Assembly: GCF_900111835.1 (NCBI RefSeq)
Contig: NZ_FOJP01000010.1
Coordinates: forward strand, 205,397-269,396
From: Metapseudomonas otitidis
GTDB lineage: Bacteria > Pseudomonadota > Gammaproteobacteria > Pseudomonadales > Pseudomonadaceae
DNA length: 64,000 nt
Reading direction: 5' to 3'
In this document: piece after piece, positions 28,706 through 42,468 of the stretch
Position numbering within the stretch: the first letter of the stretch is position 1
How the letters are laid out: every line of letters starts with the position of its first letter
Program-made: the position numbers and the translations under genes
Notes under the pieces: model-generated
What the model was told of the DNA's origin: nothing
The model's database searches: none
What the model saw: the letters and a program-made list of their open reading frames with translations, nothing else

Positions 28706-28882
28706 GGTCGTCCGGGAGGGCAGTGGAAAAGGTCGCGCTAGCCTAGACGATCCCTTCGCCCCTGGCAGCCACCGGCGTAACGCGAACCCCGTCGCGCCCC
28801 GGGACATCCGTGCTGTCCCTGGCTGGCATCGGCAGGTCTAATCGGCTCGGGAATCGGTGGTGTGAATCGGTGCGCGACTATT

Positions 28883-28910
28883 ACATGTGAGCTATTGCGG
28901 GCTCACATGT
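28883..28910. promoter_or_regulatory. Perfect 10-N8-10 palindrome ACATGTGAGC-tattgcgg-GCTCACATGT in the divergent intergenic region upstream of the PspA/flotillin/ATPase cluster
   Basis: Exact inverted repeat; it sits in the 226-bp divergent region between the CoA-transferase (start 28705) and the first cluster gene (28932). Confidence 0.4.
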
Positions 28911-28931
28911 GATGGTCTAGGCTCCGACCCC

Positions 28932-29549
28932 ATGCAGAAATCATCCGCCCACTACCAGCGACTCTTCCGCCAGCGCCTGCGTGACCAGGGGCTGGTCAAG
29001 AAAGAGGTCTGGATCCTCCCCGAGAACGCCCGCGCGCTGCTCGCGGTGGAGCGGACGCTGCGCCAGCCCCAGCCGGGGCCGGTTCACCTGGAACAGGAGA
29101 ATGCGATGGAGATGCCGCAGATCTGGAACGCCCGCGCGCTGTGCGACGCCCTGGCCGCCACCGAGCTGTTCCGCCAGGGCGAGGCCCAGGTGGAGCTGAT
29201 CGAAGGCGCCGAGCCGAGCCTGCTGGTGACCATGCGCGAGTTCGGCGACCTGCCCCTGTTCCTCGCCGTGCACGGCGAGCAGATCCTCGTCGAGGCACTG
29301 CTCTGGCCCCAGTCCGAAGTCCGCGACGTGGCGCGCTTCAACGAAGAAATCCTGCTCAGCCGCCAGCTCTTTCCGCTCTCCAGCATCGGCCTGGAGACGC
29401 GTCCCGGCGGCGAGCGTTGCTACATCATGTTCGGCGCCTTGAGCGCCCGTTCGATCCTGTCCAACGTGGTGTTCGAGATCGAGACCCTGGCCAGCAACGT
29501 CATCCGCGCCACGGAAGCCTACGAAGGCTACCTGGCGCCCCAGGCCTGA
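28932..29549 (+). CDS. DUF2170 (YjfI-like) family protein
   Basis: Immediately precedes a PspA/IM30 homolog, as in the E. coli yjfI-yjfJ pair; start chosen at MQKSSAHYQ to avoid the palindrome. Confidence 0.55.
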   Translation: MQKSSAHYQRLFRQRLRDQGLVKKEVWILPENARALLAVERTLRQPQPGPVHLEQENAMEMPQIWNARALCDALAATELFRQGEAQVELIEGAEPSLLVTMREFGDLPLFLAVHGEQILVEALLWPQSEVRDVARFNEEILLSRQLFPLSSIGLETRPGGERCYIMFGALSARSILSNVVFEIETLASNVIRATEAYEGYLAPQA

Positions 29550-29563
29550 CCCCGGAGAAACCC

Positions 29564-30250
29564 ATGAACGTATGGAGCAAGCTGATCGACGCCCTGCGTG
29601 GCGGCCTCGGCGAAGCCGGCGACGCCCTGGTGGACAGCCAGGCCCTGCGCATCCTCGACCAGGAGATCCGCGACGCCGACCAGGCCCTGCGCCAGGCCCG
29701 CGAAGCCCTGGCCGGCGTCATGGCCCGGCAGAAGCTCGCCGACGAGCGCGCCGCCCAGTGCCAGGCCAAGGTCGACGAATACGAAGGCTATGCCCTCAAG
29801 GCCCTGGAAAGCGGCAACGAGGCCCTGGCCCGTGAAGTGGCGGAGAAGATCGCCGAGCTGGAAGCGCAGCACCGGAGCGAGCGCGGCCAGGCCGAAGGCT
29901 TCAGCGCCCAGGTCGCCCAGCTGCGCAAGGCCGTGACCCAGGCCGAGGCCAACATCCGCCACCTCAAGCAACAGGTGGACACGGTCAAGGCCACCGAAAG
30001 CGTGCAGCGTGCCCAGCAGGCCGTGGCCCAGCGCCAGGGCGATACCCACAGCCGCCTGGGCACCGCCCTGGACTCGCTGGAGCGCCTCAAGCGCCAGCAG
30101 GCCGAGCGTGCCGCGCGGCTGGAGGCGGCCGACGAACTGGCCAGTGCCGAGCGTGGCGACGACCTGGAAGCGCGCCTGCGGGCCGCCGGCATCGCCACCG
30201 GGCCCAGCAGCGCCGACAGCGTCCTGGCGAGGCTGCGGGACAAACGCTGA
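29564..30250 (+). CDS. PspA/IM30 family protein (YjfJ-like)
   Basis: 228-aa all-coiled-coil protein with PspA/IM30 heptad pattern. Confidence 0.85.
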   Translation: MNVWSKLIDALRGGLGEAGDALVDSQALRILDQEIRDADQALRQAREALAGVMARQKLADERAAQCQAKVDEYEGYALKALESGNEALAREVAEKIAELEAQHRSERGQAEGFSAQVAQLRKAVTQAEANIRHLKQQVDTVKATESVQRAQQAVAQRQGDTHSRLGTALDSLERLKRQQAERAARLEAADELASAERGDDLEARLRAAGIATGPSSADSVLARLRDKR

Positions 30251-30297: not shown

Positions 30298-30939
30298 ATG
30301 GACCTCTTCCTGATCACCGCCCTCTCGTTCCCCACCGTGGTGTTCAGCTTCCTGCTGCTCATCGCGGTCATCTACTGGACCGTGGTCGCCTTCGGTCTGC
30401 TGGAGGTGGACCTGCTGGATGTCGAGGCCGACTCCCTGCTCGAAGGCCACGGCAACGCCGAAGGCCTCGCCGGCCTGCTGTCCAAGCTCAAGCTCAACGG
30501 CGTGCCGGTCACCTTGGTGCTGACCCTGCTGTTCTTCTTCGGCTGGTTCATCAGCTACTTCGTCGAACTCTGGCTGCTCGGCCAATTGCCCCTCGGCTGG
30601 CTGCGCTACCCGCTCGGCCTGGTGGTGATGATCGGCGCCCTGGTGCTGGCCGTGCCCATCGCCTCCACCCTGTGCCGCCCCCTGCGCCCGCTGTTCCTCA
30701 AGGCCGAGGCCACCAGCACCCGCAGCGTCATCGGCCAGACGGCCGTGGTGCGCAGTGGCCGCGTCACCGCCGGGCAGGGCGAAGCCGTGCTGGAGGACGG
30801 TGGCGCCGGGCTGATCCTCAAGGTCCGTGCCGACGAAGCCCTCGGGCTCAAGCGCGGCGACCGCGTCGTGTTACTGGAATACCTGGAGGCGCAGCACGCC
30901 TATCGGGTCATCACCGAGGACGAATTCCGCGGGCTCTGA
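30298..30939 (+). CDS. NfeD-like / YqiJ-like membrane protein with C-terminal OB-fold domain
   Basis: Four TM segments then a soluble beta-rich C-terminus (VVRSGRVTAGQGEAVLEDGGAGLILKVRAD...GDRVVLLEY); precedes flotillin. Confidence 0.7.
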   Translation: MDLFLITALSFPTVVFSFLLLIAVIYWTVVAFGLLEVDLLDVEADSLLEGHGNAEGLAGLLSKLKLNGVPVTLVLTLLFFFGWFISYFVELWLLGQLPLGWLRYPLGLVVMIGALVLAVPIASTLCRPLRPLFLKAEATSTRSVIGQTAVVRSGRVTAGQGEAVLEDGGAGLILKVRADEALGLKRGDRVVLLEYLEAQHAYRVITEDEFRGL

Positions 30940-30976
30940 CCCCGGTGTGCCTCAGCATCAAAGGAGAATGATTGCA

Positions 30977-33025
30977 ATGAACCTAGCCTCGCTGCTGCCC
31001 ATCCTGATCGGCGTCGGTCTCGTCGTCCTCGTGGTCGTCGGGCTCCTGGCCCTGTTCAAGGCCTTCTACATCAAGGTCCCGCAGGGCACCGCACTGATCG
31101 TCAACGACATGTCCTCCACCCCCAAGGTGCACTTCACCGGCGCCCTGGTGTACCCGGTCATCCACCTCAAGGAGTTCATGCGCATCTCGCTGATCACCCT
31201 GGAAGTGGACCGCCGTGGCAAGGACGGCCTCATCTGCCGTGACAACATGCGCGCCGACATCACCGTCGCCTTCTACCTGCGCGTCAACGAAACCCAGCAG
31301 GACGTGCTCAAGGTGGCCAAGGCCATCGGCGTCGACCGCGCCTCCGACCGGGGCGCGGTGAACGAACTGTTCAACGCCAAGTTCTCCGAAGCGCTGAAGA
31401 CCGTCGGCAAGCAGTTCGACTTCGTCGAACTGTTCGAGAACCGCCAGGACTTCCGCGACCGCATCATCGAAGTGATCGGCAACGACCTGAACGGCTACGT
31501 GCTGGAAGACGTCGCCATCGACTACCTGGAACAGACCGCCAAGCACTCCCTCGACCCGAGCAACATCCTCGACGCCGAAGGCATCCGCAAGATCACCGAA
31601 CTGACCGCCAACCAGAACGTCATCACCAACGAGCTGGAGCGCAACCAGGAACTGGCGATCCAGAAGAAGAACGTCGAGACCCGCGAAGCCGCTCTGGCTC
31701 TCGAACGCCAGCAGGCCGACGCCGAGGCCCGGCAGAAGCGCGAGATCGAGACCATCCGCGCCCGCGAGGAAGCCGAGACCGCCAAGGTCAAGGAAGAGGA
31801 ACGCCTCAAGGCCGAGCAGGCGCGCATCCAGGCGCAGCAGGAGATCGACATCCGCGTCGAGAACCACCAGCGCGAAGTGGAAGTGGCCCAGCAGAACCGC
31901 CAGCGCGCCGTGGTCATCGAAGTGGAGAAGGTCACCCGCGCCAAGGACCTGGAAGTGGTCGCCCGCGAGCGCGAAGTCGAGCTGCAGCGCATCGAGAAGG
32001 AAAAGGCGCTGGAAGAACAGCGCAAGAACATCGCCAACGTGATCCGCGAGCGCGTCGCCGTCGAGAAGACCGTCGCCCAGGAAGAAGAGCGCATCAAGGA
32101 AGTGCGTGAAGTCTCCGAAGCCGAGCGCGCCAAACAGGTCATCGTCCTCCAGGCACAGGCCGAAGCCGAGCAGGAGCTGGTGCGCCAGGTCAAGCAGGCC
32201 GAAGCCGACGAGACCCGCTCCAAGCACAAGGCCGTCGAGATCAACAACCTCGCCCAGGCCGAACTGGAAGCCGCCGCCAAGCAGGCCGAAGCCAAGAAAC
32301 GCATGGCCGAAGGCATCGAGGCCGAGCGCGCCGCCCCCGGCCTGGCCGATGCCCGCGTTCTGGAAGCGACCGCCACCGCGAAGGAGAAGGACGGCCTCGC
32401 CGACGCCCGCGTGCGCGCTGAACAGCTGATCGCCGAAGCCCGTGGCGAGCAGGAGAAGGGCCTCGCCGAAGCCCGCATCCTCGAAGCCCAGGCCGCCGCT
32501 AAGGAGAAGGACGGTCTCGCCGAAGCCAAGGTGCTGGAAGAGAAGCTCGGCGCTCAGGCCCGAGGCGAAGAACAGCTCGGCGCCGCCAAGGCCAAGGCCA
32601 CCAAGGACCTGGGTTCGGCGGAAGCGGAAATCCTCCTGCAGCGCCTCAACGCCGAGGCCGAAGGCCTGGGCAAGAAGTTCAGCGCCCTCGACGCCCTCAG
32701 CGACAGCGCCCGCCAGCACGAAGAGTTCCGCATGCAGCTGGAGAAGAGCTTCGAGGAAGCCATGGCCGCCATCGCCGCCAACAAGGACATCGCCAAGGAC
32801 CAGGCCGAGGTGCTCGCCACCGCCCTGGGCAAGGCGAAGATCGAGATCGTCGGCGGCGAAGGCGACTTCTTCAATTCCTTCGCCAAGTCGCTCTCCGTCG
32901 GCAAGGCCATCGAAGGCGTGGTGGGCAAGAGCCCCGTGGTGCAGGACGTGCTCGCCCGCCTGCTCAACGGCCGCACCCCGGCCGTCGCGCCCAAGGCTGA
33001 CGCCGCCCCGGCTGCCGAAGCCTGA
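30977..33025 (+). CDS. flotillin (SPFH/band-7) family protein, YqiK-like
   Basis: N-terminal TM, SPFH domain, long EA-rich coiled-coil with repeated AEAR/AKEKDGLAEA units. Confidence 0.9.
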   Translation: MNLASLLPILIGVGLVVLVVVGLLALFKAFYIKVPQGTALIVNDMSSTPKVHFTGALVYPVIHLKEFMRISLITLEVDRRGKDGLICRDNMRADITVAFYLRVNETQQDVLKVAKAIGVDRASDRGAVNELFNAKFSEALKTVGKQFDFVELFENRQDFRDRIIEVIGNDLNGYVLEDVAIDYLEQTAKHSLDPSNILDAEGIRKITELTANQNVITNELERNQELAIQKKNVETREAALALERQQADAEARQKREIETIRAREEAETAKVKEEERLKAEQARIQAQQEIDIRVENHQREVEVAQQNRQRAVVIEVEKVTRAKDLEVVAREREVELQRIEKEKALEEQRKNIANVIRERVAVEKTVAQEEERIKEVREVSEAERAKQVIVLQAQAEAEQELVRQVKQAEADETRSKHKAVEINNLAQAELEAAAKQAEAKKRMAEGIEAERAAPGLADARVLEATATAKEKDGLADARVRAEQLIAEARGEQEKGLAEARILEAQAAAKEKDGLAEAKVLEEKLGAQARGEEQLGAAKAKATKDLGSAEAEILLQRLNAEAEGLGKKFSALDALSDSARQHEEFRMQLEKSFEEAMAAIAANKDIAKDQAEVLATALGKAKIEIVGGEGDFFNSFAKSLSVGKAIEGVVGKSPVVQDVLARLLNGRTPAVAPKADAAPAAEA

Positions 33026-33127: not shown

Positions 33128-33367
33128 ATGGCCGAATCCCGTGACTACCTGGAGCTGTCCTTCCGCTCCATCCACTGCTTCGCCAACGACGGCCGCCTGG
33201 ACGTGCACGAACTGGCCGCCCTGCTGGCCATCGCCGAGCGCGACGGCGTCATCGACGACAACGAGAAGCGCGTGCTGAAGAAGATCCTCGCCCACGTCAG
33301 GCCCGAGGAAATCGACCCCGCCCTGCGCGAGCAGATGGCCGAAGTCGCCCGCAAGATCGGCGCCTGA
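33128..33367 (+). CDS. 79-aa hypothetical protein (TerB-like helical fold?)
   Basis: Small acidic protein between the flotillin and the giant ATPase; DGRLDVHELAALLAIAERDGVIDDNEKRVLKKI resembles TerB-type motifs. Confidence 0.45.
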   Translation: MAESRDYLELSFRSIHCFANDGRLDVHELAALLAIAERDGVIDDNEKRVLKKILAHVRPEEIDPALREQMAEVARKIGA

Positions 33368-33450
33368 GCCCAGGCCCCGCGCCCCCGCGTACCCGGCCCC
33401 TCCGCCCGAGGGGCCCTGTTCGCAGACCCAGCAGATTCAGGAAGAACACG

Positions 33451-36400
33451 ATGTCGGACGTCACCGCCGCAACCCCCGCACAGGATGTATTGGACAAGGC
33501 CGTCGCCGAAGGCGGCGCCTACGAGGTGCTGCACAAGCGCCTGCAGGACCAGGGGCAGCGCCTGCGGCAGACCACCGACAGCCTCAACCAGCGGCGCCTC
33601 GAAGCCTTCGGCGACAGCCGTATGGACGTGGTCGGCCGGGTGCGCATCCGCACCGAGAACAACTGCATCGCCCGCGACATCGTCCAGGTCGGCGACTGCC
33701 TGCTGTTCGGTTACAACGTCTTCATCGGCCTGAGGAAGGAAACCGGCATCGCCGACGTCTTCTCCCTCTACCGCCTGGTGGAAGGGGAGGAGGGCTATGA
33801 GGCCGAGCCGGTGCCGCTGGAAGGCACCTTCCTCGCCGCCCAGGGCTTCCTCAACGACTTCAACGAGCTCTACACCTACTACAAGAACACCCGCCTGCTG
33901 CAGCTGGCCATCCGCGACGGCAAGCTGCTGGCGAGCTTCCAGATCGGCGAGCGCATCACCGACATCCGCGTGTTCCGCTGGTCCCTCTCCAGCGACGGGC
34001 GCGAGGTGCGCTACATCGACAACCGCGGCGAGCGCGACATCGCCCTGCCGTCGCCCTTCGACTTCGAATGGAAGAAGGCCACCCGCGAGATGGTGGTCCA
34101 GGGCCGCCACCCGCACCTGAACATCCTCGACACCGTGTTCGTCGAGACCATCGGCGGCGACCTCACCATCAAGGTGGAGAACAACACCGAGGACGGCCTC
34201 GGCATCTACCGCGAAGAGGTGGTGGACAAGACCCAGTCCCTCGACGACGCCCAGATCGAATTCGCCCGCCTCGGCAGCCTGGTGCTGCTCAAGGTGCTGC
34301 CCTACCGCGAGGAGCAGTGGCGCTACCTGGTCTACAACAGCCTGACCCGCCAGGTGGAGCGCATCGACGCCATCGGCCAGGCCTGCGTCCAGCTGCCCGA
34401 GGACCACGGCATCATCTTCCCCGGCGGCTGCTACCTGCAGAACGGCGAATACAAGACCTTCGACGCCTCCATGGCCGGCATGCGCTTCAAGCGCAGCGTG
34501 CGCTCGCCCAACGGCGAAGACGTGCAGTACATCTTCTACCACCCCGAGGAGGGCCGTTCGGTCCTGCTCACCTACAACCTCATCAGCCGCCAGCTGCAGA
34601 ACCCGCTGTTCGGCCACGGCTACGCGCGCCTGGAAGACGGGCGCATGGTGATCTTCGCCGCCGAGGGCGACGAGCCGACCCGCATCCACCCCATGCAGAT
34701 CTGGCAGACCCCGTTCTTCACCGAGGAGTACGCCGCCCGCCAGCCGGCCCGCAGCGGCTTCTTCGGGCGCATCGGCAACGCCGAGCTGGTGCGCGGCGTC
34801 TCCGACCTGTACGGCCTGTGCCGCGAGATCGAAACCCCCTCCGTCTCGGTGCAGCGCTACACCCAGCTGTGCCAGGGCACCCGCCGCCTGTTCGACGTCT
34901 ACCACTGGCTCGGCAGCGACGAGCTCGACGGGCTCGCCCCGCTGCTGCGGGAAGTGGCCGCCACCGCCGAACGGGTGCTGGACGAATACGAGAAGGTCGA
35001 GAGCATCCGCCGCCAGTCCGACCAGGCCATGGCCGGCGCCGAAGCGCAGCAGAAGGCCCTGCTCGGGCGCCTCCAGGCCGCCGGCTGGGAACAGGCCCAG
35101 GACTACGTTGACGCCCTCAACGGCATCACTGCCCAGCGTGGCCTGCTGCTGACCATCCGTGACTACCGCTACATCGACGTCGCCCGCATCGACGCCATGG
35201 AAACCGAGCTGCAGGAGGCCCAGGCGCGCACCGCGGCCGCCACCGCCACCTTCCTCGCCAGCGACCAGGCCCTGCAGCCCTTCGTCACCCGCCTGGAGAC
35301 GCTGGACGCCGACGCGCAGAAGGCCGAGACCGTCGCCCTCCTGGCACCGCCGCTGGAGGCCTTGCAGGCCATGGCCGGCGACCTGGACATGCTGTCCAAC
35401 CTGATGGGCTCGCTGCAGATCGACGACGCCACCCAGCGCACCCGCATCATCGAGTCCATCTCCGAGATCTACGCCCGCCTCAACCAGGCCAAGGCCCGCG
35501 CCGAGCAGCGCCGCAAGGCCCTCGGCTCCACCGAATCGGTGGCCCAGTTCGGCGCCCAGTTCAAGCTGTTCGGCCAGGGCATCGTCAACGCCCTGGCCCA
35601 GGCCCAGGACCCCGAGCGCTGCGACGAGCAGCTGTCGCGCCTGCTGGTGCAGCTGGAGGAACTGGAGAGCCGCTTCGGCGATCACGAGCAGTTCCTCGGC
35701 GACATCCTCAGCAAGCGCGAGGAGCTGCTGGAAACCTTCGAGGCCCACAAGCAATCCCTGCTCGACGAGCGCCAGCGCAAGGCCCAGGGCCTGCAGGACG
35801 CCGCCCGGCGCATCCTCGACAGCCTCGGCCGACGTACCGCCAAGTTCACCCAGGCCGAGGAGCTCAACGCCTTCTTCGCCGCTGACCCGCTGATCCTCAA
35901 GCTGCGCGAACTGGCCCAGCGCCTGCGCGAGCTCAACGACAGCGTCAAGGCCGACGACGTCGAAGCCCGCCTCAAGGGCGCCCGCGACCAGGCCGTGCGC
36001 GCCCTGCGCGACAAGAGCGAACTGTTCGAAGCCGGCGGCAACGTCATCAAGCTCGGCCCGCGCCACCGCTTCAGCGTCAACACCCAGGAGCTGGACCTGA
36101 CCCTGCTGCCCCGGGGCGACGGGCTCTACCTGCACCTCACCGGCACCGACTTCCTCGAACCCCTGCACGACCCCGAGCTGGACGCCCTCAAGGCCTACTG
36201 GCAGGTGGCGCTGGAGTCCGAGTCCGAGCGCCTCTACCGCGCCGAATACCTGGCCGGGGAAGTCCTCGACGCCGCCGACGGCCAGCGTGAAGGCCTCAGC
36301 CTGGACGGCCTCAAGGCCCTGCTGGCGCAGCCCGAGGAACTGGCCCGGGTGGTGCGCGACTTCGCCGCCCCGCGCTACCGCGACGGCTACGAGAAGGGCA

Positions 36401-38694
36401 TCCACGACCACGACGCCGCCGCCATCCTCCAGCACCTGCTGCCCCTGCGCGAAAGCGCCGGGCTGCTGTGCTTCGGCGCCGTGCCCCGGGCCTTCGCCAC
36501 GCTGTTCTGGGACGCCGCCCGGCAGGGCGAGAGCGGCACCGCCTGGCCGGAACGCGCCCGCACCAGCCGGCACATCCAGCAGCTGTTCGGCCGCGCCGAC
36601 GGCCTGCTGGCGCTGCAGGCCGAAGTGACCGACGCCCTGCAGGCCTTCCTCGCCGAGCACCCGCTGCCCCTGCAGCCGGGCCAGGTCGCCGAGGCCGCCG
36701 AGTACCTGGTGCAGGAACTGGCCGCCGAGCGCATCGAATTCACCTTCAGCAAGTACGCCCGCCAGCTGCACGAAGGGCTCAAGCTGCGCCTGCAAGGCGC
36801 GCGCATGTGGGACGACTACCAGGCCGCCGTGGGCCGCCTGGAGGGGCGCCCGGCGGCCCAGTGGGCGCTGGTCGGGCACTGGCTCGACGGCCTCTGCGGC
36901 GAAGAGGGCTTCGCCGGCCTCGCCGATTACCGGGCCGAAGCCGTGGCCCTGGCGCTGCTGCGTGCCGACTTCCCGCAGCGCTTCACCGAAGTGGACCTGC
37001 GCTTCAGCGTCAGCGGCCTGATGGGCGAGCACCCGCGCATCCAGGACCACAGCCTGGCACTGGCAGTGGACGACTTCTTCGGCCGCCTGCGCGAACACCG
37101 CGAGCAGGTGCTGCCCGGCCTGCGCCAGTACCAGGCGCTGCGCCAGGCCCTGGTCGCCCGCCAGCGCGAGGCCCTGCGCCTGGCCGAGTTCAAGCCGCGC
37201 CCGCTGACCTCCTTCGTGCGCAACAAACTGATCAACGACGTCTACCTCGGCATCATCGGCGACAACCTGGCCAAGCAGATGGGCACCGTCGGCGAGAACA
37301 AGCGCACCGACCTCATGGGCCTGCTGATGCTCATCTCGCCCCCCGGCTACGGCAAGACCACCCTGATGGAGTACGTCGCCCACCGCCTCGGCCTGATCTT
37401 CATGAAGATCAACGGCCCGGCCCTGGGCCACGAGGTGCGCTCGCTGGACCCGGCCCAGGCGCCCGACGCCACCTCGCGCCAGGAGCTGGAGAAGCTCAAC
37501 CTGGCCCTGGAGATGGGCAACAACGTGATGCTCTACGTCGACGACATCCAGCACACCCACCCGGAGTTCCTGCAGAAGTTCATCTCCCTCTGCGACGGCA
37601 CCCGGCGCATCGAGGGCGTGTGGAAGGGCCGCACCAAGACCTACGACATGCGTGGCAAGAAGTTCTGCGTGGTGATGTCCGGCAACCCCTACACCGAGTC
37701 CGGCGATGTGTTCCGCATCCCCGACATGCTCGCCAACCGCGCCGACATCTATAACCTCGGCGACACCCTGGGCGGCATGCAGGACGCCTTCGCCCTCAGC
37801 TACATCGAGAACGCCCTGACCTCCAACCCGGTGCTGGCGCCCCTGGCCACCCGCGACATGGCCGACGTCTACCGCTTCGTCGACCGTGCCGAGGGCAAGC
37901 CCTTCTCCGCCAACGAACTGGGCCACAGCTACAGCGGCGCCGAGATCAACGAGATCACCACCACCCTGCAACGCCTCATGCAGGTGCGCGACGTGGTGCT
38001 CAAGGTCAACCAGCAGTACATCGCCAGTGCCGCCCAGGCCGACCAGTACCGCACCGAGCCGCCGTTCAAGCTGCAGGGCAGCTACCGCAACATGAACAAG
38101 ATGGCGGAGAAGATCTCCGCCGTGATGAACGACGCCGAGCTGATGCAACTGCTGGCCGACCACTACCAGGGCGAGTCCCAGCTGCTCACCACCGGCGCCG
38201 AGGAGAACCTGCTCAAGCTCGCCGAACTGCGTGGCAACCAGAGCGCCGAGCAGGCGGAGCGCTGGACCCAGATCAAGCGCGACTTCATGCGCAACAAATC
38301 CATGGGCGGCAGCGACAGCGACGTCGGCACCCGCGTGGTGGCCCAGCTCAACGACCTGGTGGAGAGCGTGCGCGGGCTGGCCCGCAGCGAAGCCCCCGCA
38401 CCGGCCGCCGCCGAGGTGCCGTGGGAGGCCCTGCTGCAACGCCTGGAGGCGCTGGTGCAACCGCCCGCCGCGTTCAAGGTGGACGTCACCGCCCCGGCCC
38501 AGGAGGGCGTGCGCGAAGTCCTGCTGAGCCTGGCCGACTGCCTGGAGAACAGCTTCATGCCGCTGATCCGCATCATGGACAAGAAGATCGACGTCGACCT
38601 GCGCACCCATCACCGCATCACCGACATCGCCAATCGCCTCAACGAGCTGGGTGGCGCCCTGCCGGCGCCCGGCACCGACGGCACGCCCACCTGA
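33451..38694 (+). CDS. 1747-aa multidomain protein with P-loop NTPase (AAA-like) module in its C-terminal third
   Basis: Walker A LISPPGYGKTTLMEY (about residue 1300), Walker B NVMLYVDDIQHT (about residue 1365); about 1250 aa of N-terminal beta-rich and coiled-coil regions with no assignable family. Confidence 0.8.
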   Translation: MSDVTAATPAQDVLDKAVAEGGAYEVLHKRLQDQGQRLRQTTDSLNQRRLEAFGDSRMDVVGRVRIRTENNCIARDIVQVGDCLLFGYNVFIGLRKETGIADVFSLYRLVEGEEGYEAEPVPLEGTFLAAQGFLNDFNELYTYYKNTRLLQLAIRDGKLLASFQIGERITDIRVFRWSLSSDGREVRYIDNRGERDIALPSPFDFEWKKATREMVVQGRHPHLNILDTVFVETIGGDLTIKVENNTEDGLGIYREEVVDKTQSLDDAQIEFARLGSLVLLKVLPYREEQWRYLVYNSLTRQVERIDAIGQACVQLPEDHGIIFPGGCYLQNGEYKTFDASMAGMRFKRSVRSPNGEDVQYIFYHPEEGRSVLLTYNLISRQLQNPLFGHGYARLEDGRMVIFAAEGDEPTRIHPMQIWQTPFFTEEYAARQPARSGFFGRIGNAELVRGVSDLYGLCREIETPSVSVQRYTQLCQGTRRLFDVYHWLGSDELDGLAPLLREVAATAERVLDEYEKVESIRRQSDQAMAGAEAQQKALLGRLQAAGWEQAQDYVDALNGITAQRGLLLTIRDYRYIDVARIDAMETELQEAQARTAAATATFLASDQALQPFVTRLETLDADAQKAETVALLAPPLEALQAMAGDLDMLSNLMGSLQIDDATQRTRIIESISEIYARLNQAKARAEQRRKALGSTESVAQFGAQFKLFGQGIVNALAQAQDPERCDEQLSRLLVQLEELESRFGDHEQFLGDILSKREELLETFEAHKQSLLDERQRKAQGLQDAARRILDSLGRRTAKFTQAEELNAFFAADPLILKLRELAQRLRELNDSVKADDVEARLKGARDQAVRALRDKSELFEAGGNVIKLGPRHRFSVNTQELDLTLLPRGDGLYLHLTGTDFLEPLHDPELDALKAYWQVALESESERLYRAEYLAGEVLDAADGQREGLSLDGLKALLAQPEELARVVRDFAAPRYRDGYEKGIHDHDAAAILQHLLPLRESAGLLCFGAVPRAFATLFWDAARQGESGTAWPERARTSRHIQQLFGRADGLLALQAEVTDALQAFLAEHPLPLQPGQVAEAAEYLVQELAAERIEFTFSKYARQLHEGLKLRLQGARMWDDYQAAVGRLEGRPAAQWALVGHWLDGLCGEEGFAGLADYRAEAVALALLRADFPQRFTEVDLRFSVSGLMGEHPRIQDHSLALAVDDFFGRLREHREQVLPGLRQYQALRQALVARQREALRLAEFKPRPLTSFVRNKLINDVYLGIIGDNLAKQMGTVGENKRTDLMGLLMLISPPGYGKTTLMEYVAHRLGLIFMKINGPALGHEVRSLDPAQAPDATSRQELEKLNLALEMGNNVMLYVDDIQHTHPEFLQKFISLCDGTRRIEGVWKGRTKTYDMRGKKFCVVMSGNPYTESGDVFRIPDMLANRADIYNLGDTLGGMQDAFALSYIENALTSNPVLAPLATRDMADVYRFVDRAEGKPFSANELGHSYSGAEINEITTTLQRLMQVRDVVLKVNQQYIASAAQADQYRTEPPFKLQGSYRNMNKMAEKISAVMNDAELMQLLADHYQGESQLLTTGAEENLLKLAELRGNQSAEQAERWTQIKRDFMRNKSMGGSDSDVGTRVVAQLNDLVESVRGLARSEAPAPAAAEVPWEALLQRLEALVQPPAAFKVDVTAPAQEGVREVLLSLADCLENSFMPLIRIMDKKIDVDLRTHHRITDIANRLNELGGALPAPGTDGTPT

Positions 38695-38707
38695 CCCGGA
38701 GGTCGCC

Positions 38708-39397
38708 ATGGATTTCGCAGGACTCGACCAGCAGCTGCGCGACAGCCTGCAGGACCTGAAGCTGAGCAACGAGGAGCGCGACGAGCTGCGCGAACTGGGC
38801 AGCGAGCTGGGCCCGGACCAGGTGCGCTACCTGCGCAACCGCGCCTTCGACCTGGTGCGCGAGCTGTGCCAGGCCGACCCGGCCAACCTGCAACCGGCGC
38901 TCAAGTGGCTGGAGCAGGTGGTGCGCACCCTCGACCTTGCCGGCGCCGTCGCCCCGGCCGTGGCCAGCGCCCACTTCAGCCCCGGCGAGGAGTGCCGGCG
39001 CAAGATCCGCGAGCTGTGCCGCCAGGCCCGGCACAGCGTGGACATCTGCGTCTACACCATCTCCGACGACCAGCTCAGCAGCGAGATCCTCGCCTGCCAC
39101 GGGCGCGGCATCCGTGTGCGGGTGATCAGCGACAACGAGAAACAGCACGACGAGGGCAGCGACATCCAGGCCCTGCGCCACGCCGGAGTCGATGTGCGCA
39201 TCGACGACAGCCCCTTCCACATGCACCACAAGTTCGCCCTGTTCGACGGCCGCCTGCTGCTCAACGGCAGTTTCAACTGGACCCGCAGCGCCAGCACCAG
39301 CAACGAGGAGAACCTCCTGGTGATCGACAACGCCCACCTGGTGGCGCGCTACCTGGCGGAGTTCGACAGCCTCTGGGGGCGCTACGCCCCACGCTGA
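38708..39397 (+). CDS. phospholipase D-family (single HKD) nuclease, Nuc-like
   Basis: HKD motif HMHHKFALFDGRLLLNGSFNWTRSA; starts 13 bp after the giant ATPase. Confidence 0.85.
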   Translation: MDFAGLDQQLRDSLQDLKLSNEERDELRELGSELGPDQVRYLRNRAFDLVRELCQADPANLQPALKWLEQVVRTLDLAGAVAPAVASAHFSPGEECRRKIRELCRQARHSVDICVYTISDDQLSSEILACHGRGIRVRVISDNEKQHDEGSDIQALRHAGVDVRIDDSPFHMHHKFALFDGRLLLNGSFNWTRSASTSNEENLLVIDNAHLVARYLAEFDSLWGRYAPR

Positions 39398-39524: not shown

Positions 39525-40709
39525 GTGCAGATGGACCTTCACATCCCCACCCTGGTGCTGGTGGACGTCTACATCCTCGCCCTGCTCGGCATCCTCGCCG
39601 GGCGGGCCTGGCGTCGCGGCACCCCGGAGCCGACCCTCGGCTACCTGAGCCTGACCCTGCTGCTCGGCGCCTTCTGCACCGTGCTCGGCAGCCTGCGCGG
39701 CCTGGGCATGGACTGGGTGCCGATCATCATCGGCAACGTTCTGCTGCAGCTCAGCTGCGCCGCCAGCTGGACCTCCATGCGGGTGTTCGCCGGCCGGCCC
39801 GTTCATCTCGCCGGCTTCCTCGCCGGGCCGCTGCTGTGGTTGGCGCTCTGCGCCGTGCCGGCGTTCTACGCCTCGCTGCCGGCGCGGATCATGCTCAGCT
39901 GCGTGCTGATGATCACCTACACCGCCCTCGCGGCCTTCGAGCTGTGGCGCGCCCGGCGCAGCCTGCAGGTGTCCATCGCCCCGGCCATGGCGCTGCACCT
40001 CATGCACGTGGCGACCTACGGCGTGCGCCTGGCGCTGGACCGGGGCGAGCCGTTCCAGCGGCTGGTCAACGGCCAGGCCAGCCCCTTCTTCGCGATGCTG
40101 GTGTTCGAGACGCTGCTGTACGCCATCGGCGTCGCCTTCGTCACCCTGGCCATGGTCCGTGAGCGGGCCGAGCTGCAGTACAAGCACGCCGCCTACAGCG
40201 ACCCGCTGACCGGTGTCGGCAACCGCCGTGCCTTCATGGATTCCGGCCAGGCCCTGCTGGAGCGCTGCGCACGGCGCGGGGAGGGCGTGGTGCTGCTGCT
40301 CTGCGACCTGGACAACTTCAAGCGCCTCAACGACTCCTACGGCCACGCCAGCGGCGACGCCGCCCTGGTGGACTTCACCCGTATCGTCGCCGCGCGCATG
40401 CGTCGGCACGACGTGTTCGGGCGCATCGGTGGGGAAGAGTTCGCCTGCCTGCTGGCCGATGCCGACGGCGCCACCGCCGTGCTGGTGGCCGAGCGCATCC
40501 GCCGCGAGTTCGCCGAGAGCTGCCCCGAGGCACCGGGGCCGCTCAGCGTCAGCATCGGCGTGGCCGGCAGTGGCGAGGCGGGGTACGACCTGTCGCGGTT
40601 GCTGTCCCTGGCGGACAAGGCCCTGTACCGGGCCAAGGCCCAGGGGCGCAACCGCGTGGAGTGCTACCGCGAGGCCCCGGCCGAGCCCAGCGGCGAGTCG
40701 GCGGCCTGA
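39525..40709 (+). CDS. diguanylate cyclase (GGDEF) with N-terminal membrane sensor domain
   Basis: Seven TM segments then GGEEF (RIGGEEFACLL) and RxxD I-site. Confidence 0.85.
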   Translation: MQMDLHIPTLVLVDVYILALLGILAGRAWRRGTPEPTLGYLSLTLLLGAFCTVLGSLRGLGMDWVPIIIGNVLLQLSCAASWTSMRVFAGRPVHLAGFLAGPLLWLALCAVPAFYASLPARIMLSCVLMITYTALAAFELWRARRSLQVSIAPAMALHLMHVATYGVRLALDRGEPFQRLVNGQASPFFAMLVFETLLYAIGVAFVTLAMVRERAELQYKHAAYSDPLTGVGNRRAFMDSGQALLERCARRGEGVVLLLCDLDNFKRLNDSYGHASGDAALVDFTRIVAARMRRHDVFGRIGGEEFACLLADADGATAVLVAERIRREFAESCPEAPGPLSVSIGVAGSGEAGYDLSRLLSLADKALYRAKAQGRNRVECYREAPAEPSGESAA

Positions 40710-40737: not shown

Positions 40738-42468
40738 TCAGGCCGCCACGGGAAGGGGGTGGACCAGGCCGTTGTTCAGCGCCTCCAGCAACTGCTGGCG
40801 CAGGGCGGCGGCCCGTGGCGGGTCTTCCGCCTGCAGGTGGTCGATGGCCTGGTGCAGCTGGGCGAGGGGGTTCTCCTCCCGCATCACGTTGGTCAGCGAC
40901 AGGCTGGCGATGGCGTCTTCGAAGCGGCCGTGCCGGATGTGGTCCAGCAGCAGGGCTTCGTCCAGCCTGCGTTCGGCGCTTTGCATCGCTTGCAGCCGAG
41001 CTTGCAGGGCCTGGGCCCTGGCCGTGTCGCCCAGGGCCAGGTAGGCCAGGCCGATGGCTTCCAGGTAAATGCCGAGGTCCTCGTCGTCTTCCAGGGCCTC
41101 GGCCTGCTGCGCATCGTCCAGGGTGACGAGGCAGGCCTCCACCCAGCGCAGGGCGCGGGGTGCTTCGCCCAGGTCGCGCAGCAGCGGGGCCTGCTCGGCC
41201 AGCTTGGTCACGCGGCCGTCCAGGTCCAGGGCGGCATTCAGCTGCTCGAGCTCCTCCAGGTGCGTGCGCACCCCGTAGGCGTCGCGCTGGTGCGCCGGCA
41301 GGGCGGCCTGCTGGCGCAGCCAGCCTTCCAGGGCGAACAGGCGCAGCCAGCCCCAGTTGTCCTCGCCACGGATCCGCTCCAGCTCGATCAACGCCTGGCG
41401 CCGCAGCTCGTCGGCCCAGGACGGGTGCCGGCCGAGGTGGTGCTCCCACAGGGTGAGCAGCAGCCAGATGCGCTGGCCCGGCTCGTGGGCGCGGGAGTCC
41501 AGCAGGGCGTTGGCCTGGGCCAGGTCGCCCTGCTCGGCGTGCCAGTCCACCAGGCGCAGCAGCAGTTCGTCGTAGTGATGCACCGGCGCGCAGTCCACCA
41601 CCCGCAGCGCGGTATCCGGCTGCGCCATGGCCAGGGCGTGGTCCATCAGCTCGGTGTGGGTGAAGTAGCCGGTCTGCTCGCCCAGGTCGGCCAGCAGTTC
41701 GAAGGCGGCCTCGGTCTGGCCACCCTCCATCAAGGCCAGCACGGCCTGGCCCTGTTCCTCCACCGGCAGTTGCCTGGCCAGCGCCAGGGCACGGGGCACC
41801 TCGCCCAGTTCGGCAAGGCCAGCGAGCACCGCCTTCAGGTCATGGAGGGGCAGGCTGGTGTCCGGCTCCGGGTGGGCCAGCAGCTCCCAGGCCCGCTCCA
41901 GGCTGCGCAGGGCCGCCTGGGGTTGCTGCAGGCGACGCTGCAGCCCGGCGAGGATGAGGTTCTGCGGGCCGGACAGGCTCTGGCCGGTGCCCTGTTCCTG
42001 TTGCTGGGTGAGGGTGTCGAGCTGGGCTCGGGCCTGGGCGTCCTGGCCGCAGGCGAGCAGCAGCGGGATCTGCAGCAGCGGCGACTCCGGCAGCGGACGC
42101 TCCAGGCGCTCCAGCAGGGACAGCGCCGCGTGCGGGTCCTGGGCTTCCAGGTAGTGCTCCAGCATGTTGTCCAGGGCGCTCTGCTGGTAGCCGTCGCGCA
42201 GCTCGGCCAGGGCGGTGAGTGCGGCCTGTTCCTCGCCGGCACGCAGCAGCGCCGGGGCCACCTGGTGCAATGCCAGCTGGCGGGCCTCGCCTTGCAGGCC
42301 CTGGGCCATGTCCAGCGCCAGGCGCGGCTCGAACAGGCTCAGCAGGGCCGTGCGGTTCACCTGGCCAGCCTCCTGCAGATAGGCTTCCAGGCTGCCGTCG
42401 TCGCGGTTGACGGCGTACAGCACCGCCGCGATGAGCACGACCACGACCAGGGCAATGAGTAGTTCCAT
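40738..42468 (-). CDS. membrane-anchored TPR-like repeat protein (hypothetical)
   Basis: N-terminal signal-anchor MELLIALVVVVLIAAVLY, Ala/Leu-rich helical repeats; start is an internal Met of ORF 40738..42654. Confidence 0.5.
   Translation of the reverse strand: MELLIALVVVVLIAAVLYAVNRDDGSLEAYLQEAGQVNRTALLSLFEPRLALDMAQGLQGEARQLALHQVAPALLRAGEEQAALTALAELRDGYQQSALDNMLEHYLEAQDPHAALSLLERLERPLPESPLLQIPLLLACGQDAQARAQLDTLTQQQEQGTGQSLSGPQNLILAGLQRRLQQPQAALRSLERAWELLAHPEPDTSLPLHDLKAVLAGLAELGEVPRALALARQLPVEEQGQAVLALMEGGQTEAAFELLADLGEQTGYFTHTELMDHALAMAQPDTALRVVDCAPVHHYDELLLRLVDWHAEQGDLAQANALLDSRAHEPGQRIWLLLTLWEHHLGRHPSWADELRRQALIELERIRGEDNWGWLRLFALEGWLRQQAALPAHQRDAYGVRTHLEELEQLNAALDLDGRVTKLAEQAPLLRDLGEAPRALRWVEACLVTLDDAQQAEALEDDEDLGIYLEAIGLAYLALGDTARAQALQARLQAMQSAERRLDEALLLDHIRHGRFEDAIASLSLTNVMREENPLAQLHQAIDHLQAEDPPRAAALRQQLLEALNNGLVHPLPVAA

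What the first reader, a model, noticed from the sequence alone, without database searches (positions are those of the whole stretch)
33451..38694. Giant protein with ATPase module in the last third and about 1250 aa of unassigned N-terminal sequence
The NTPase core sits between residues about 1260 and 1500 of 1747. It is preceded by a beta-rich N-terminal region (about 1-480) and a long helical/coiled-coil region (about 500-1200, rich in ARLEA/QRLRE heptads). A tail of about 250 aa follows the core. This is neither an SMC-, RecN- nor helicase-type arrangement. It looks more like an MoxR/dynein-like AAA embedded in a scaffold, and its reading frame is immediately followed by a nuclease gene.
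Basis: seen in the sequence. Interest (0 to 1): 0.55.

Follow-up and report, generated by a model that had tools for sequence, protein, structure and literature searches.

The report
BacE: flotillin-linked giant AAA+ ATPase
The 1747-residue reading frame is a real, very widely conserved gene, the counterpart of Pseudomonas aeruginosa BacE/PA3728: a soluble giant ATPase that always sits next to a flotillin membrane-scaffold gene pair, whose layout and operon are already published but whose function nobody has tested.

Summary
ORF 33451..38694 (+) is a genuine gene (GC3 0.95), and the longer antisense ORF is a high-GC shadow. It is not a fusion artefact: more than 5,600 homologue clusters share the same collinear 1,550-1,950 aa architecture.

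It is the orthologue (83% identity, same synteny) of P. aeruginosa PA3728/BacE, fifth gene of the bacABCDEF operon. That operon encodes YjfI-like BacA, PspA-like BacB, NfeD/YqiJ-like BacC, flotillin BacD, BacE and the PLD protein BacF.

Ravi et al. [quoted passage not shown] Wallart et al. 2024 showed that the six genes are co-transcribed. Function is untested, and the database name "DNA repair ATPase" has no visible basis.

High-confidence models give, in order:
- a beta-propeller;
- a spectrin-repeat-like rod;
- an orphan helical domain;
- a single AAA+ module closest to MoxR (CbbQ/NorQ), dynein and midasin, with an invariant non-canonical Walker B (DD).

The NfeD-like gene, flotillin and BacE form a strict triad across five phyla. 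PspA, PLD, TelA and a small TerB-like protein are accessories.

Most likely role (inferred): nucleotide-driven remodelling of the flotillin/PspA membrane-stress scaffold.

Verdict: already known, modest interest.

The parts
28881..28912 (+). Two copies of TYACATGTRA, 22 bp apart, ending about 20 nt before the bacA start. Operator-like element of the operon that contains the giant gene.
   Evidence: These are the only two matches in the 64 kb window (0.05 expected). The same arrangement occurs upstream of yjfI/bacA in 53 of 58 related loci from several families.
28932..29549 (+). bacA: YjfI/DUF2170 (CesT/Tir-like) protein, first gene of the operon.
   Evidence: NCBIfam equivalog 'biofilm formation regulator BacA', E 3e-103, above cut-off. 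Pfam DUF2170, E 1.6e-50.
29561..30250 (+). bacB: PspA/IM30-family protein (YjfJ-like).
   Evidence: Pfam PspA_IM30, E 6.7e-50.
30298..30939 (+). bacC: three-TM YqiJ / short-NfeD-like membrane protein.
   Evidence: Three hydrophobic segments. Its homologue lies directly upstream of flotillin in 71/71 loci. The homologue in Flammeovirga carries YqiJ_N. It is called short NfeD in PMC13086221.
30968..33025 (+). bacD: flotillin-like SPFH protein with one N-terminal TM segment (PaFlo3 in P. aeruginosa).
   Evidence: Weak NCBIfam FloT match, E 0.004. One TM segment. Homologues are annotated 'flotillin family protein' or carry Band_7. Present in 71/71 loci at up to 94% identity.
33128..33367 (+). Small 79-aa TerB-like gene between bacD and bacE (accessory, not in the P. 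aeruginosa-type loci).
   Evidence: RBS AAGAGGA. Pfam TerB/DUF533, E 0.021. Conserved at 40-77% identity in 27/80 loci, at varying positions in the cluster.
33451..38694 (+). bacE: the 1747-aa giant ATPase (whole gene including stop).
33625..34710 (+). aa 59-420: beta-propeller (core of Pfam DUF3686), preceded by an N-terminal helix (aa 9-53).
   Evidence: Model pLDDT is mostly above 90, with about 27 strands. Foldseek matches WD40-type and other propellers (Elp1, Ski8, clathrin terminal domain, prolyl oligopeptidase) at E 1e-6 to 1e-4, prob 1.00.
34711..36030 (+). aa 421-860: rod of long helices, spectrin-repeat-like; contains Pfam DUF7902 (aa 606-689).
36031..37200 (+). aa 861-1250: small beta domain (about 865-905) plus a globular helical domain with an invariant G-x-H-D-x-D motif (983-988). 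No detectable relatives.
   Evidence: pLDDT 93-98. No Pfam hit when scanned alone. A family profile against PDB sequences matches only the Walker A stretch. Invariant residues.
37201..37800 (+). aa 1251-1450: AAA+ alpha/beta domain. Walker A lies at nt 37336-37362 and Walker B (DD) at nt 37531-37554. A pre-sensor-1 beta-hairpin covers aa 1386-1399. Sensor-1 is N1412 and the candidate arginine finger is R1430.
37801..38400 (+). aa 1451-1650: AAA lid with a helical insertion and a conserved helical extension. Contains QGSYR (1542-1546), the candidate sensor-2.
   Evidence: pLDDT above 90 up to about aa 1620. Conservation 0.5-0.7, with invariant R1534, P1537 and G1543-R1546.
38401..38691 (+). aa 1651-1747: variable C-terminal tail ending in one long helix.
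   Evidence: Column conservation 0.15 with 50% gaps. pLDDT 44-83.
38708..39397 (+). bacF: single-HKD PLD-family protein with an N-terminal extension of about 95 aa.
   Evidence: Pfam PLDc_2, E 1.2e-29. Best PDB relatives: mitochondrial cardiolipin hydrolase/Zucchini 2e-30, Nuc 4.5e-11, NucT 1.7e-7. Present downstream of the giant in 42/75 loci.

Best explanation
**What it is (shown).** The gene is the orthologue of P. aeruginosa bacE (PA3728 / PA14_16190). It belongs to the DUF3686 family that databases call 'DNA repair ATPase'. The protein is soluble (no TM segment). From N to C terminus it has a beta-propeller, a spectrin-repeat-like helical rod, an orphan helical domain, and one C-terminal AAA+ module of the MoxR/dynein/midasin structural class. 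Its gene is always placed directly after a short-NfeD/YqiJ-like membrane protein gene and a flotillin gene. In Pseudomonas this triad is embedded in the bacABCDEF operon with a YjfI-like chaperone/regulator, a PspA homologue and a PLD-family enzyme.

**How it most likely works (inferred).** BacE would be recruited to the inner face of the membrane by the flotillin/NfeD scaffold. The propeller and rod would act as the docking and spacing elements. Nucleotide binding and hydrolysis in an oligomerised AAA+ ring would then assemble, disassemble or reposition the flotillin (and, where present, PspA) assemblies during envelope stress. The job would be analogous to what dedicated AAA+ partners do for other membrane scaffolds.

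The invariant Asp in place of the catalytic Walker B Glu suggests slow, switch-like hydrolysis rather than a fast threading motor. No aromatic pore loop is conserved.

PLD, TelA and the TerB-like protein are optional add-ons that would act on the same stressed membrane patch.
For: **Identity**
- 83% identity over 99% of the length to the P. aeruginosa protein (P0006).
- Same gene order in P. paraeruginosa, from yjfI to recJ (L003).
- BacA equivalog hit, E 3e-103.
- PMC10948618 shows by RT-PCR that bacA-F form one transcript, and that BacB-F proteins rise 6-13-fold in a bacA mutant.

**Architecture**
- Pfam DUF3686, DUF7902 and AAA_5.
- Models with pLDDT 91.2 / pTM 0.80 and pLDDT 87.8 / pTM 0.67.
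- Propeller matches, spectrin-repeat matches, MoxR/dynein/midasin matches.

**Coupling to flotillin**
- Flotillin and the YqiJ-like gene are present upstream in 71/71 loci. yjfI is in 56/71, pspA in 54/71 and PLD in 42/75.
- The same small-protein / roughly 650-710 aa flotillin / giant triad occurs in Flammeovirga, Streptomyces and Deinococcus, and in relatives at only 30% identity.

**Published comparative genomics** describes the same operon and proposes ATP-dependent membrane remodelling for PspA-linked AAA+ proteins (PMC11237479).

**Stress link**
- PA3728-PA3732 are induced by phage infection (PMC12041424) and co-upregulated in a stressed suppressor strain (PMC13637947).
- An SPFH protein links PspA to the membrane in B. 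subtilis (title of PMC8581546).

**Cytoplasmic, peripheral protein:** no hydrophobic segment in BacE, three in BacC and one in BacD.

**ATPase features:** conserved Walker A, DD Walker B, N1412, R1430 and GSYR across 72 homologues down to about 30% identity.
Against: - No experiment addresses BacE. No interaction with flotillin, NfeD or PspA has been shown, and none could be modelled here.
- A pa3728 transposon mutant grows normally on standard media, and a flotillin (paFlo3) deletion has only a marginal biofilm phenotype. Any role is therefore conditional.
- MoxR-class ATPases usually work with a VWA-domain partner, and none is encoded here.
- The oligomeric state is unknown.
- The catalytic Glu is replaced by Asp, so robust ATP hydrolysis is not assured.
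- Gene adjacency would equally fit BacE being a client or a regulator of the scaffold rather than its remodeller.
Confidence: 0.5

Rival explanations
1. Nucleotide-dependent switch or maturation chaperone. BacE does not remodel flotillin. It uses the flotillin platform as a place to act on another membrane client, as MoxR ATPases do for Rubisco, NorB or LdcI. Or it acts as an ATP-gated signalling scaffold.
For: - The closest compact structural relatives are the MoxR proteins CbbQ and NorQ.
- The invariant DD Walker B recalls slow, switch-type AAA+ proteins such as DnaA (own knowledge).
- No conserved aromatic pore loop.
- The large propeller and spectrin-like rod look like interaction surfaces.
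Against: - No VWA partner and no candidate client gene is conserved beside it. The only invariant neighbours are the flotillin and NfeD-like genes.
Confidence: 0.22
2. Anti-phage defence or abortive-infection module. The giant ATPase senses infection and the PLD-family enzyme is a nuclease effector.
For: [quoted passage not shown]
- The PLD has weak similarity to NucT, DISARM DrmC and DpdK.
- Giant ATPase plus nuclease pairs are common in defence systems (own knowledge).
Against: - No PADLOC model matches apart from a coiled-coil-only LmuB hit at E 3.8e-5.
- The gene sits at a fixed core-genome position between thrC and recJ in Pseudomonas.
- It is very strongly conserved (58-88% identity across orders), unlike fast-evolving defence genes.
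- It is absent from 50,697 phage records and present in only 13 of 72,556 plasmid records, mostly megaplasmids.
- The PLD is missing from 33 of 75 loci, while flotillin is never missing.
- Induction by phage is what a membrane-stress ('phage shock') response does anyway.
Confidence: 0.1
3. A DNA repair ATPase, as the database name says.
For: - The Pfam DUF3686 description and the NCBI product name.
- recJ lies 4.5 kb downstream in Pseudomonas.
- The PLD could be a nuclease.
Against: - No DNA-binding, nuclease or SMC/Rad50-type domain was found.
- The ATPase is AAA+, not ABC-type.
- All conserved neighbours are membrane or membrane-stress proteins.
- The recJ linkage is absent outside Pseudomonadaceae.
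- No paper in the library mentions DUF3686.
- The name probably derives from coiled-coil similarity to SbcC-like proteins (inference).
Confidence: 0.04
4. Assembly or annotation artefact: a fusion of separate genes.
For: None beyond the unusual length.
Against: - An identical protein is found on 4 independent contigs. More than 5,600 homologue clusters have 93-100% query coverage.
- Full-length relatives of 1,550-1,950 aa exist down to 30% identity.
- GC3 stays at 0.95 throughout.
- Both halves give confident single-chain models.
Confidence: 0.01

Closest known systems
[quoted passage not shown] 2024
   Same: Orthologous: 83% identity, the same six-gene order, the same Pfam domains, and the same neighbours from thrC to recJ.
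   Different: Nothing essential. This window additionally carries a 79-aa TerB-like gene between bacD and bacE, and a GGDEF gene after bacF.
MoxR-family AAA+ ATPases (CbbQ, NorQ, RavA)
   Different: MoxR proteins are about 300 aa, have a DE Walker B and work with a VWA-domain partner. BacE is 1747 aa, has an invariant DD and has no VWA neighbour. Sequence similarity is confined to the P-loop.
Dynein heavy chain and midasin/Rea1
   Different: Those carry six AAA modules in one chain. BacE has one and would have to oligomerise. There is no homology outside the AAA fold.
HflK/C-FtsH (an SPFH cage enclosing an AAA+ protease); NfeD-SPFH operon pairs
   Same: An SPFH-family scaffold genetically and functionally coupled to an AAA+ machine, with an NfeD-type partner (own knowledge for HflK/C-FtsH; for this locus).
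   Different: FtsH is a membrane-anchored classical-clade AAA protease. BacE is soluble, of MoxR/dynein class, and has no protease domain.
Vps4 with ESCRT-III (PspA/Vipp1 are ESCRT-III superfamily members)
   Same: An AAA+ ATPase encoded with a PspA homologue. ATP-dependent remodelling of such polymers has been proposed for PspA-linked AAA+ proteins (PMC11237479).
SMC / Rad50 / RecN / Lamassu LmuB coiled-coil ATPases
   Same: Long helical region; a weak PADLOC LmuB hit (E 3.8e-5) over aa 507-886.
   Different: Those are ABC-type ATPases with a head split by the coiled coil. Here the P-loop is a single C-terminal AAA+ module and the match is limited to the helical rod.

Membership tests
BacE / DUF3686 'DNA repair ATPase' family | N-terminal DUF3686 domain | tested here: met
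   Pfam PF12458, aa 38-485, covering 2-448 of 448 profile positions, E 1.6e-206.
BacE / DUF3686 'DNA repair ATPase' family | DUF7902 in the helical region and a single C-terminal AAA+ module with the family motifs SPPGYGKTT and DDIQH | tested here: met
   PF25472, E 9e-30; AAA_5 above cut-off. The motifs are invariant in 72 homologues.
BacE / DUF3686 'DNA repair ATPase' family | Collinear full-length architecture of about 1,550-1,950 aa | tested here: met
   The 120 best hits cover 93-100% of the query, apart from one 65% fragment. 65 full-length representatives at 30-58% identity.
BacE / DUF3686 'DNA repair ATPase' family | Gene placed directly after the YqiJ/NfeD-like and flotillin genes | tested here: met
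   71/71 loci, plus Bacteroidota, Actinomycetota, Deinococcota and 30%-identity relatives.
BacE / DUF3686 'DNA repair ATPase' family | Orthology to P. aeruginosa bacE (operon with the bacA equivalog) | tested here: met
   83% identity. BacA NCBIfam equivalog above cut-off. Identical gene order in L003.
MoxR AAA+ family | AAA+ fold of the MoxR/dynein class with a pre-sensor-1 beta-hairpin | tested here: met
MoxR AAA+ family | Canonical Walker B hhhhDE | tested here: not met
   LYVDD: D1365 is invariant in place of Glu.
MoxR AAA+ family | Adjacent VWA-domain partner gene | tested here: not met
   No VWA domain in any neighbour scanned.
MoxR AAA+ family | Sequence membership (Pfam AAA_3 or a MoxR profile) | tested here: not met
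   Only AAA_5, AAA and AAA_22 hits of 24-26 bits. Profile against PDB sequences matches only the Walker A stretch.
Dynein / midasin | Six concatenated AAA modules in one polypeptide | tested here: not met
   One P-loop and one AAA fold in 1747 aa.
SMC / Rad50 / RecN-type ATPases | ABC-type head formed by N- and C-terminal halves flanking an antiparallel coiled coil | tested here: not met
   No SMC or ABC domain by Pfam or NCBIfam. The N-terminus is a beta-propeller. The LmuB hit covers only the helical rod.
Vps4-type ESCRT-III disassemblase | N-terminal MIT domain and a classical-clade AAA module | tested here: not met
Known anti-phage defence systems (PADLOC-DB 2.0) | Match to a defence-protein model | tested here: not met
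   Only LmuB (coiled-coil region, E 3.8e-5) and mad8 (E 0.045).
DNA repair proteins (as named) | DNA-binding or nuclease domain, or a conserved DNA-repair gene context | tested here: not met
   No such domain. Conserved neighbours are membrane-stress genes. The recJ linkage occurs only in Pseudomonadaceae.
DNA repair proteins (as named) | DNA-dependent ATPase activity or a DNA-damage phenotype | not testable with these tools
   Needs biochemistry and genetics.

The most novel reading that the evidence does not exclude
BacE is the dedicated ATP-driven assembly/disassembly machine for bacterial flotillin cages, also acting on PspA polymers where these are present. That would make it a prokaryotic counterpart of what Vps4 does for ESCRT-III. 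It would also mean that flotillin microdomains in many bacteria are actively, energy-dependently turned over. The propeller-plus-spectrin-like rod would be the element that reads or spans the flotillin dome.
Probability: 0.3. Interest if true: 0.7.

Novelty: already known. Interest (0 to 1): 0.33.

Why it matters
- **Bacterial flotillins.** Their roles are still poorly defined, and single deletions give weak phenotypes. A 1,700-aa ATPase welded to the flotillin/NfeD pair across at least five phyla says this scaffold has an energy-consuming step that nobody has studied.
- **Pathogen relevance.** The operon affects biofilm and virulence in P. aeruginosa (abstracts of PMC2587700 and PMC10948618). 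It is induced by phage infection. PA3728 is listed among genes recurrently mutated in cystic fibrosis isolates.
- **Annotation.** Thousands of genomes label this protein 'DNA repair ATPase'. The evidence here finds no support for that name.
- **Limit.** None of this makes the first-stage finding new. It is a correct rediscovery of a published but functionally open family.

Tried and rejected
- **PDB sequence searches.** The single sequence and the 72-sequence family profile matched only about 35 residues around the Walker A motif of RuvB, p97, NVL and Rix7. No solved relative exists.
- **Pfam on isolated segments.** The middle domain (aa 861-1250) and the C-terminal 297 aa gave nothing credible.
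- **PADLOC.** The LmuB hit is a coiled-coil artefact.
- **Sigma-54 promoter** upstream of bacA, as proposed for P. aeruginosa. No TGGCAC-N5-TTGCW match with 3 or fewer mismatches lies between 28643 and 28957, and matches in the window as a whole are at chance level.
- **Sigma-70 and terminator scan of 28.5-41 kb.** No promoter passed, and terminator-like sites were below shuffled expectation.
- **AlphaFold database fold search.** The library was unavailable. Eukaryotic or archaeal relatives of the propeller were therefore not checked.
- **Arc pathways paper** (PMC8926400). PA3729 appears only as immunoprecipitation background, so it is irrelevant here.
- **Flotillin against PDB sequences and Pfam.** No significant hit despite clear family membership by context and annotation.
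Full report

Yes. The window has about 68% G+C, so long ORFs appear on both strands. At this position there is a 1747-aa ORF on the + strand (33451..38694) and an even longer 1874-aa ORF on the - strand.

The + frame has codon-position G+C of 0.71/0.40/0.95. The antisense ORF has its G+C peak at position 1 (0.92), so it simply mirrors the third positions of the real gene. The + strand product has normal composition, whereas the antisense product is an A/G/V/L-rich shadow.

The start codon is preceded by AGGAAG, and homologues align from residue 1. An identical protein occurs on four independent public contigs. 5,647 homologue clusters were scored below E 1e-5. The best 120 range from 100% down to 64% identity and nearly all cover 93-100% of the query. 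A fusion or assembly artefact is excluded.

**2. Domain anatomy**

Pfam assigns three domains:
- DUF3686 ('ATPase involved in DNA repair') to aa 38-485, E 1.6e-206;
- DUF7902 to aa 606-689, E 9e-30;
- AAA_5 (dynein-related) to aa 1292-1418, E 9e-6, above its cut-off.

NCBIfam and the PDB sequence search recognise only the P-loop. A profile built from 72 diverse homologues does no better.

Two AlphaFold2 models were built on alignments of those 72 homologues. Both are confident: aa 851-1747 has pLDDT 91.2 and pTM 0.80, and aa 1-870 has pLDDT 87.8 and pTM 0.67.

*N-terminal half.*
- An N-terminal helix (aa 9-53) is followed by about 27 beta-strands between aa 59 and 419.
- Foldseek matches these strands to WD40-type and other beta-propellers: Elp1, Ski8, the clathrin terminal domain and prolyl oligopeptidase, at E 1e-6 to 1e-4 and probability 1.00.

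*Middle region.* The second model shows a small beta domain (about aa 865-905) and a globular helical domain (about aa 930-1250). No relative was detectable for these. This region carries an invariant G-x-H-D-x-D motif at 983-988, which I cannot explain.

*AAA+ module.*
- beta1 with Walker A SPPGYGKTT (1296-1304);
- beta3 with Walker B LYVDD (D1364, D1365);
- a beta-hairpin at 1386-1399, immediately before beta4, which is the pre-sensor-1 hairpin;
- sensor-1 N1412;
- the conserved P-D-M-L-x-N-R-A-D stretch with R1430;
- a lid containing QGSYR (1542-1546).

This core is the most conserved part of the protein, at 76% column conservation over aa 1251-1450. The last roughly 100 residues are variable and poorly modelled.

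Two points deserve note:
- The residue that is normally the catalytic Glu of Walker B is an invariant Asp (DDIQH).
- No aromatic pore-loop motif is conserved between beta2 and helix 2.

From general knowledge of AAA+ proteins (for example DnaA, whose Walker B is also DD), this suggests slow or switch-like hydrolysis rather than a fast polypeptide-threading motor. That is inference only.

BacE has no hydrophobic segment, so it is a soluble cytoplasmic protein.

**3. Genomic context in the window**

All of the following genes lie on the + strand with short gaps:
- a YjfI/DUF2170 protein (28932..29549). It scores as the NCBIfam equivalog 'biofilm formation regulator BacA', E 3e-103, above cut-off;
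- a PspA/IM30 protein (29561..30250);
- a three-TM YqiJ/short-NfeD-like protein (30298..30939);
- a 685-aa flotillin-like protein with one TM segment (30968..33025);
- an unlisted 79-aa TerB-like gene (33128..33367);
- the giant gene;
- 13 nt after its stop, a 229-aa single-HKD PLD-family protein (38708..39397).

After that come a GGDEF gene, an unassigned 638-aa gene on the opposite strand, yaeQ and recJ. thrC lies upstream. This is the thrC-recJ region of Pseudomonas genomes, and P. paraeruginosa has the same order (L003).

**4. What is already published**

- Ravi et al. (mSystems 2024; PMC11237479) describe exactly this operon class. [quoted passage not shown] They also note that shorter versions with flotillin, YqiJ and sometimes the ATPase are more widespread.
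- Wallart et al. (Front Microbiol 2024; PMC10948618) showed by RT-PCR in P. aeruginosa PA14 that six genes form one operon. They named PA14_16190 bacE and PA14_16200 bacF. They found that BacB-F accumulate 6-13-fold in a bacA mutant. They state that no experimental data exist for the function of the downstream genes.
- By gene order, bacE is PA3728.
- PA3728-PA3732 are upregulated in phage-infected cells and in a stressed suppressor strain.
- PA3728 is listed among genes recurrently mutated in cystic fibrosis isolates.
- A pa3728 transposon mutant grows normally and has even been used as a neutral control.
- The flotillin (PaFlo3) deletion has only a marginal biofilm defect.
- No paper in the searchable library mentions DUF3686.

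**5. What the comparative data add**

I fetched 80 loci from species-representative genomes and searched them with the window's neighbouring proteins.

| Component | Loci with it / loci with enough flank |
|---|---|
| Flotillin, directly upstream | 71 / 71 |
| YqiJ-like gene, directly upstream | 71 / 71 |
| yjfI | 56 / 71 |
| pspA | 54 / 71 |
| PLD, downstream | 42 / 75 |
| 79-aa TerB-like gene, any position | 27 / 80 |

The TerB-like gene sits in varying positions: before yjfI, between flotillin and the giant, or after the giant.

These 80 loci are the closest ones (at least 55% identity, mostly Gammaproteobacteria). I therefore also inspected distant members.
- Flammeovirga (Bacteroidota), Streptomyces, Deinococcus, a Vibrio relative at 31% identity and a metagenomic relative at 30% identity were checked.
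- All five show the order: small protein, then a 647-710 aa flotillin/Band_7-type protein, then the giant.
- Longimicrobium (Gemmatimonadota) carries copies 65% identical to the Pseudomonas protein.

A TelA gene (Pfam E 5.7e-72) follows the giant in nine Lysobacteraceae loci. One also lies near it in both 30%-identity relatives. TelA and TerB are not mentioned in the main text of Ravi et al..

A search with the propeller region against 1.84 billion representative proteins found 750 clusters at E 1e-3 or better. The full-length ones all measure about 1,550-1,950 aa.

The gene is absent from 50,697 phage records. It is present in only 13 of 72,556 plasmid records, mostly megaplasmids or mislabelled chromosomes.

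The obligatory partnership is therefore with the flotillin/NfeD pair. PspA/YjfI, PLD, TelA and the TerB-like protein are lineage-specific accessories, and all of them belong to membrane-stress families.

**6. Mechanism**

*Shown:*
- domain order and fold classes;
- conservation of the nucleotide-binding residues;
- solubility;
- strict adjacency to flotillin and NfeD;
- co-transcription and co-regulation in P. aeruginosa, from the literature.

*Inferred:*
- BacE is recruited to flotillin assemblies on the cytoplasmic face of the membrane.
- It oligomerises through its AAA+ module and uses the nucleotide cycle to remodel the flotillin scaffold, and PspA polymers where present, during envelope stress.

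The analogies are the SPFH cage HflK/C with the AAA+ protease FtsH, and ESCRT-III with Vps4 (both from general knowledge). Eukaryotic flotillin forms a 44-mer dome on the membrane (abstract of PMC13000311), and an SPFH protein links PspA to the membrane in B. subtilis (title of PMC8581546).

I put about 0.5 on this explanation as a whole. Identity as a BacE orthologue and flotillin-coupled AAA+ protein is near certain. The remodelling mechanism itself deserves about 0.4.

*Main rival:* BacE acts as a MoxR-style chaperone or switch on some other client at the flotillin platform (0.22). The DD Walker B and the absence of a pore loop favour this. The absence of a VWA partner or of any conserved client gene argues against it.

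*Other rivals:*
- A defence-system reading (0.10) rests on phage induction and on the PLD. Against it stand the fixed core-genome position, the very high conservation, the absence from mobile elements, the lack of any PADLOC model, and the dispensability of the PLD.
- The 'DNA repair' label (0.04) has no support in domains or context.

**7. The PLD**

Its closest solved relatives are mitochondrial cardiolipin hydrolase/Zucchini (E 2e-30 and 2e-28), ahead of Salmonella Nuc (4.5e-11) and NucT (1.7e-7). It scores below cut-off for NucT, DrmC and DpdK. That family is itself debated between phospholipase and nuclease activity (own knowledge). Calling it a nuclease is therefore premature, and in this membrane context a lipid substrate is at least as plausible.

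**8. Noticed on the way**

Two copies of TYACATGTRA, 22 bp apart, lie just upstream of bacA (28881-28890 and 28903-28912). They are the only two matches in 64 kb, against 0.05 expected.

The same pair, ending about 24 nt before the start codon, is present in 53 of 58 loci that carry yjfI. These range from Pseudomonas to Lysobacteraceae, Cellvibrionaceae and Lampropedia.

By eye, a -35-like TTGAY lies between the two copies, and a -10-like TAGTCT lies 17 nt further on. That would give a nearly leaderless transcript, but this is untested. The bacA paper does not mention the element. The sigma-54 site proposed there has no counterpart in this window at 3 or fewer mismatches.

**9. Verdict**

However, the protein family, its architecture and its operon partners are in the literature, and the gene has a name.

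New here, and only incremental:
- the confident fold assignment (propeller, spectrin-like rod, orphan helical domain, MoxR/dynein-class AAA+ with a DD Walker B);
- the quantification of flotillin/NfeD as the invariant partners across five phyla;
- the TelA and TerB-like accessories;
- the conserved operator-like repeat.

Novelty: already known. Interest: about 0.33, because the function of a universally flotillin-linked giant ATPase remains a genuine and experimentally approachable open question.

Noticed in passing
window 33128-33367 (+): Unlisted 79-aa gene between the flotillin gene and the giant gene. It has an AAGAGGA ribosome-binding site and a weak TerB/DUF533-like signature (E 0.021). 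It is conserved in 27 of 80 related loci, but at three different positions in the cluster, and is absent from the P. aeruginosa-type loci.
   Followed up: partly
window 28881-28912 (+), upstream of bacA (start 28932): Two copies of TYACATGTRA, 22 bp apart. They are the only matches in the window (0.05 expected). The same pair occurs about 24 nt before the yjfI/bacA start in 53 of 58 loci from several bacterial families. It looks like an operator flanking a -35-like TTGAY. It is not mentioned in the bacA paper, which proposes a sigma-54 site that I could not find here.
   Followed up: partly
L036, L037, L042, L046, L048, L056, L060, L063, L079 (about 15.9-17.2 kb; 8.8-9.8 kb in L048); L084 12502-13608; L085 12001-13221: A TelA (toxic anion resistance) gene follows the giant ATPase gene in Lysobacteraceae, usually after a 256-aa protein of unknown family. 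One also lies near it in relatives only 30% identical. TelA is therefore a recurrent accessory partner. It is not mentioned in the main text of the published operon description.
   Followed up: partly
L057 6527-9968: In Lampropedia hyalina the flotillin and giant genes are separated by a 3.3 kb insertion. It carries an alpha/beta-hydrolase-like ORF, an NYN-domain protein and a nucleotidyltransferase/HepT toxin-antitoxin pair.
   Followed up: partly
window 36397-36414 (aa 983-988 of the giant protein): An invariant G-x-H-D-x-D motif, plus invariant E1163 and H1194, in the orphan middle helical domain. It could be a metal or ligand site or an interdomain contact. I have no explanation.
   Followed up: no
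window 37531-37554 (aa 1361-1368): The Walker B motif is LYVDDIQH, with Asp instead of the catalytic Glu. It is invariant in 72 homologues down to about 30% identity.
   Followed up: partly
window 38708-39397 (+): The closest solved relatives of the PLD-family protein BacF are mitochondrial cardiolipin hydrolase/Zucchini rather than bacterial Nuc or NucT. It has an N-terminal extension of about 95 aa that gave weak TerB-like cross-hits in two loci (L045, L070).
   Followed up: partly
window 30968-33025 (+): The flotillin-like protein is up to 94% identical across Pseudomonas species. Even so, it fails every Pfam model (Band_7 included) and every PDB sequence. Its only hit is a weak NCBIfam FloT match (E 0.004).
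   Followed up: partly
window 33145-38769 (-): An 1874-aa antisense ORF, longer than the real gene. It is a high-GC shadow frame (GC1 0.92) and not a gene.
   Followed up: yes
window 40738-42654 (-): A 638-aa ORF with no Pfam or NCBIfam family. It is conserved at only 30-40% identity in some Pseudomonas loci. The neighbouring GGDEF gene (39525-40709) is likewise only variably present.
   Followed up: no
L050, L061, L068 (Longimicrobium, Gemmatimonadota): These giant ATPase copies are 65-66% identical to the Pseudomonas protein. That is as close as many Gammaproteobacteria, which suggests lateral transfer of the yqiJ-flotillin-bacE triad.
   Followed up: no
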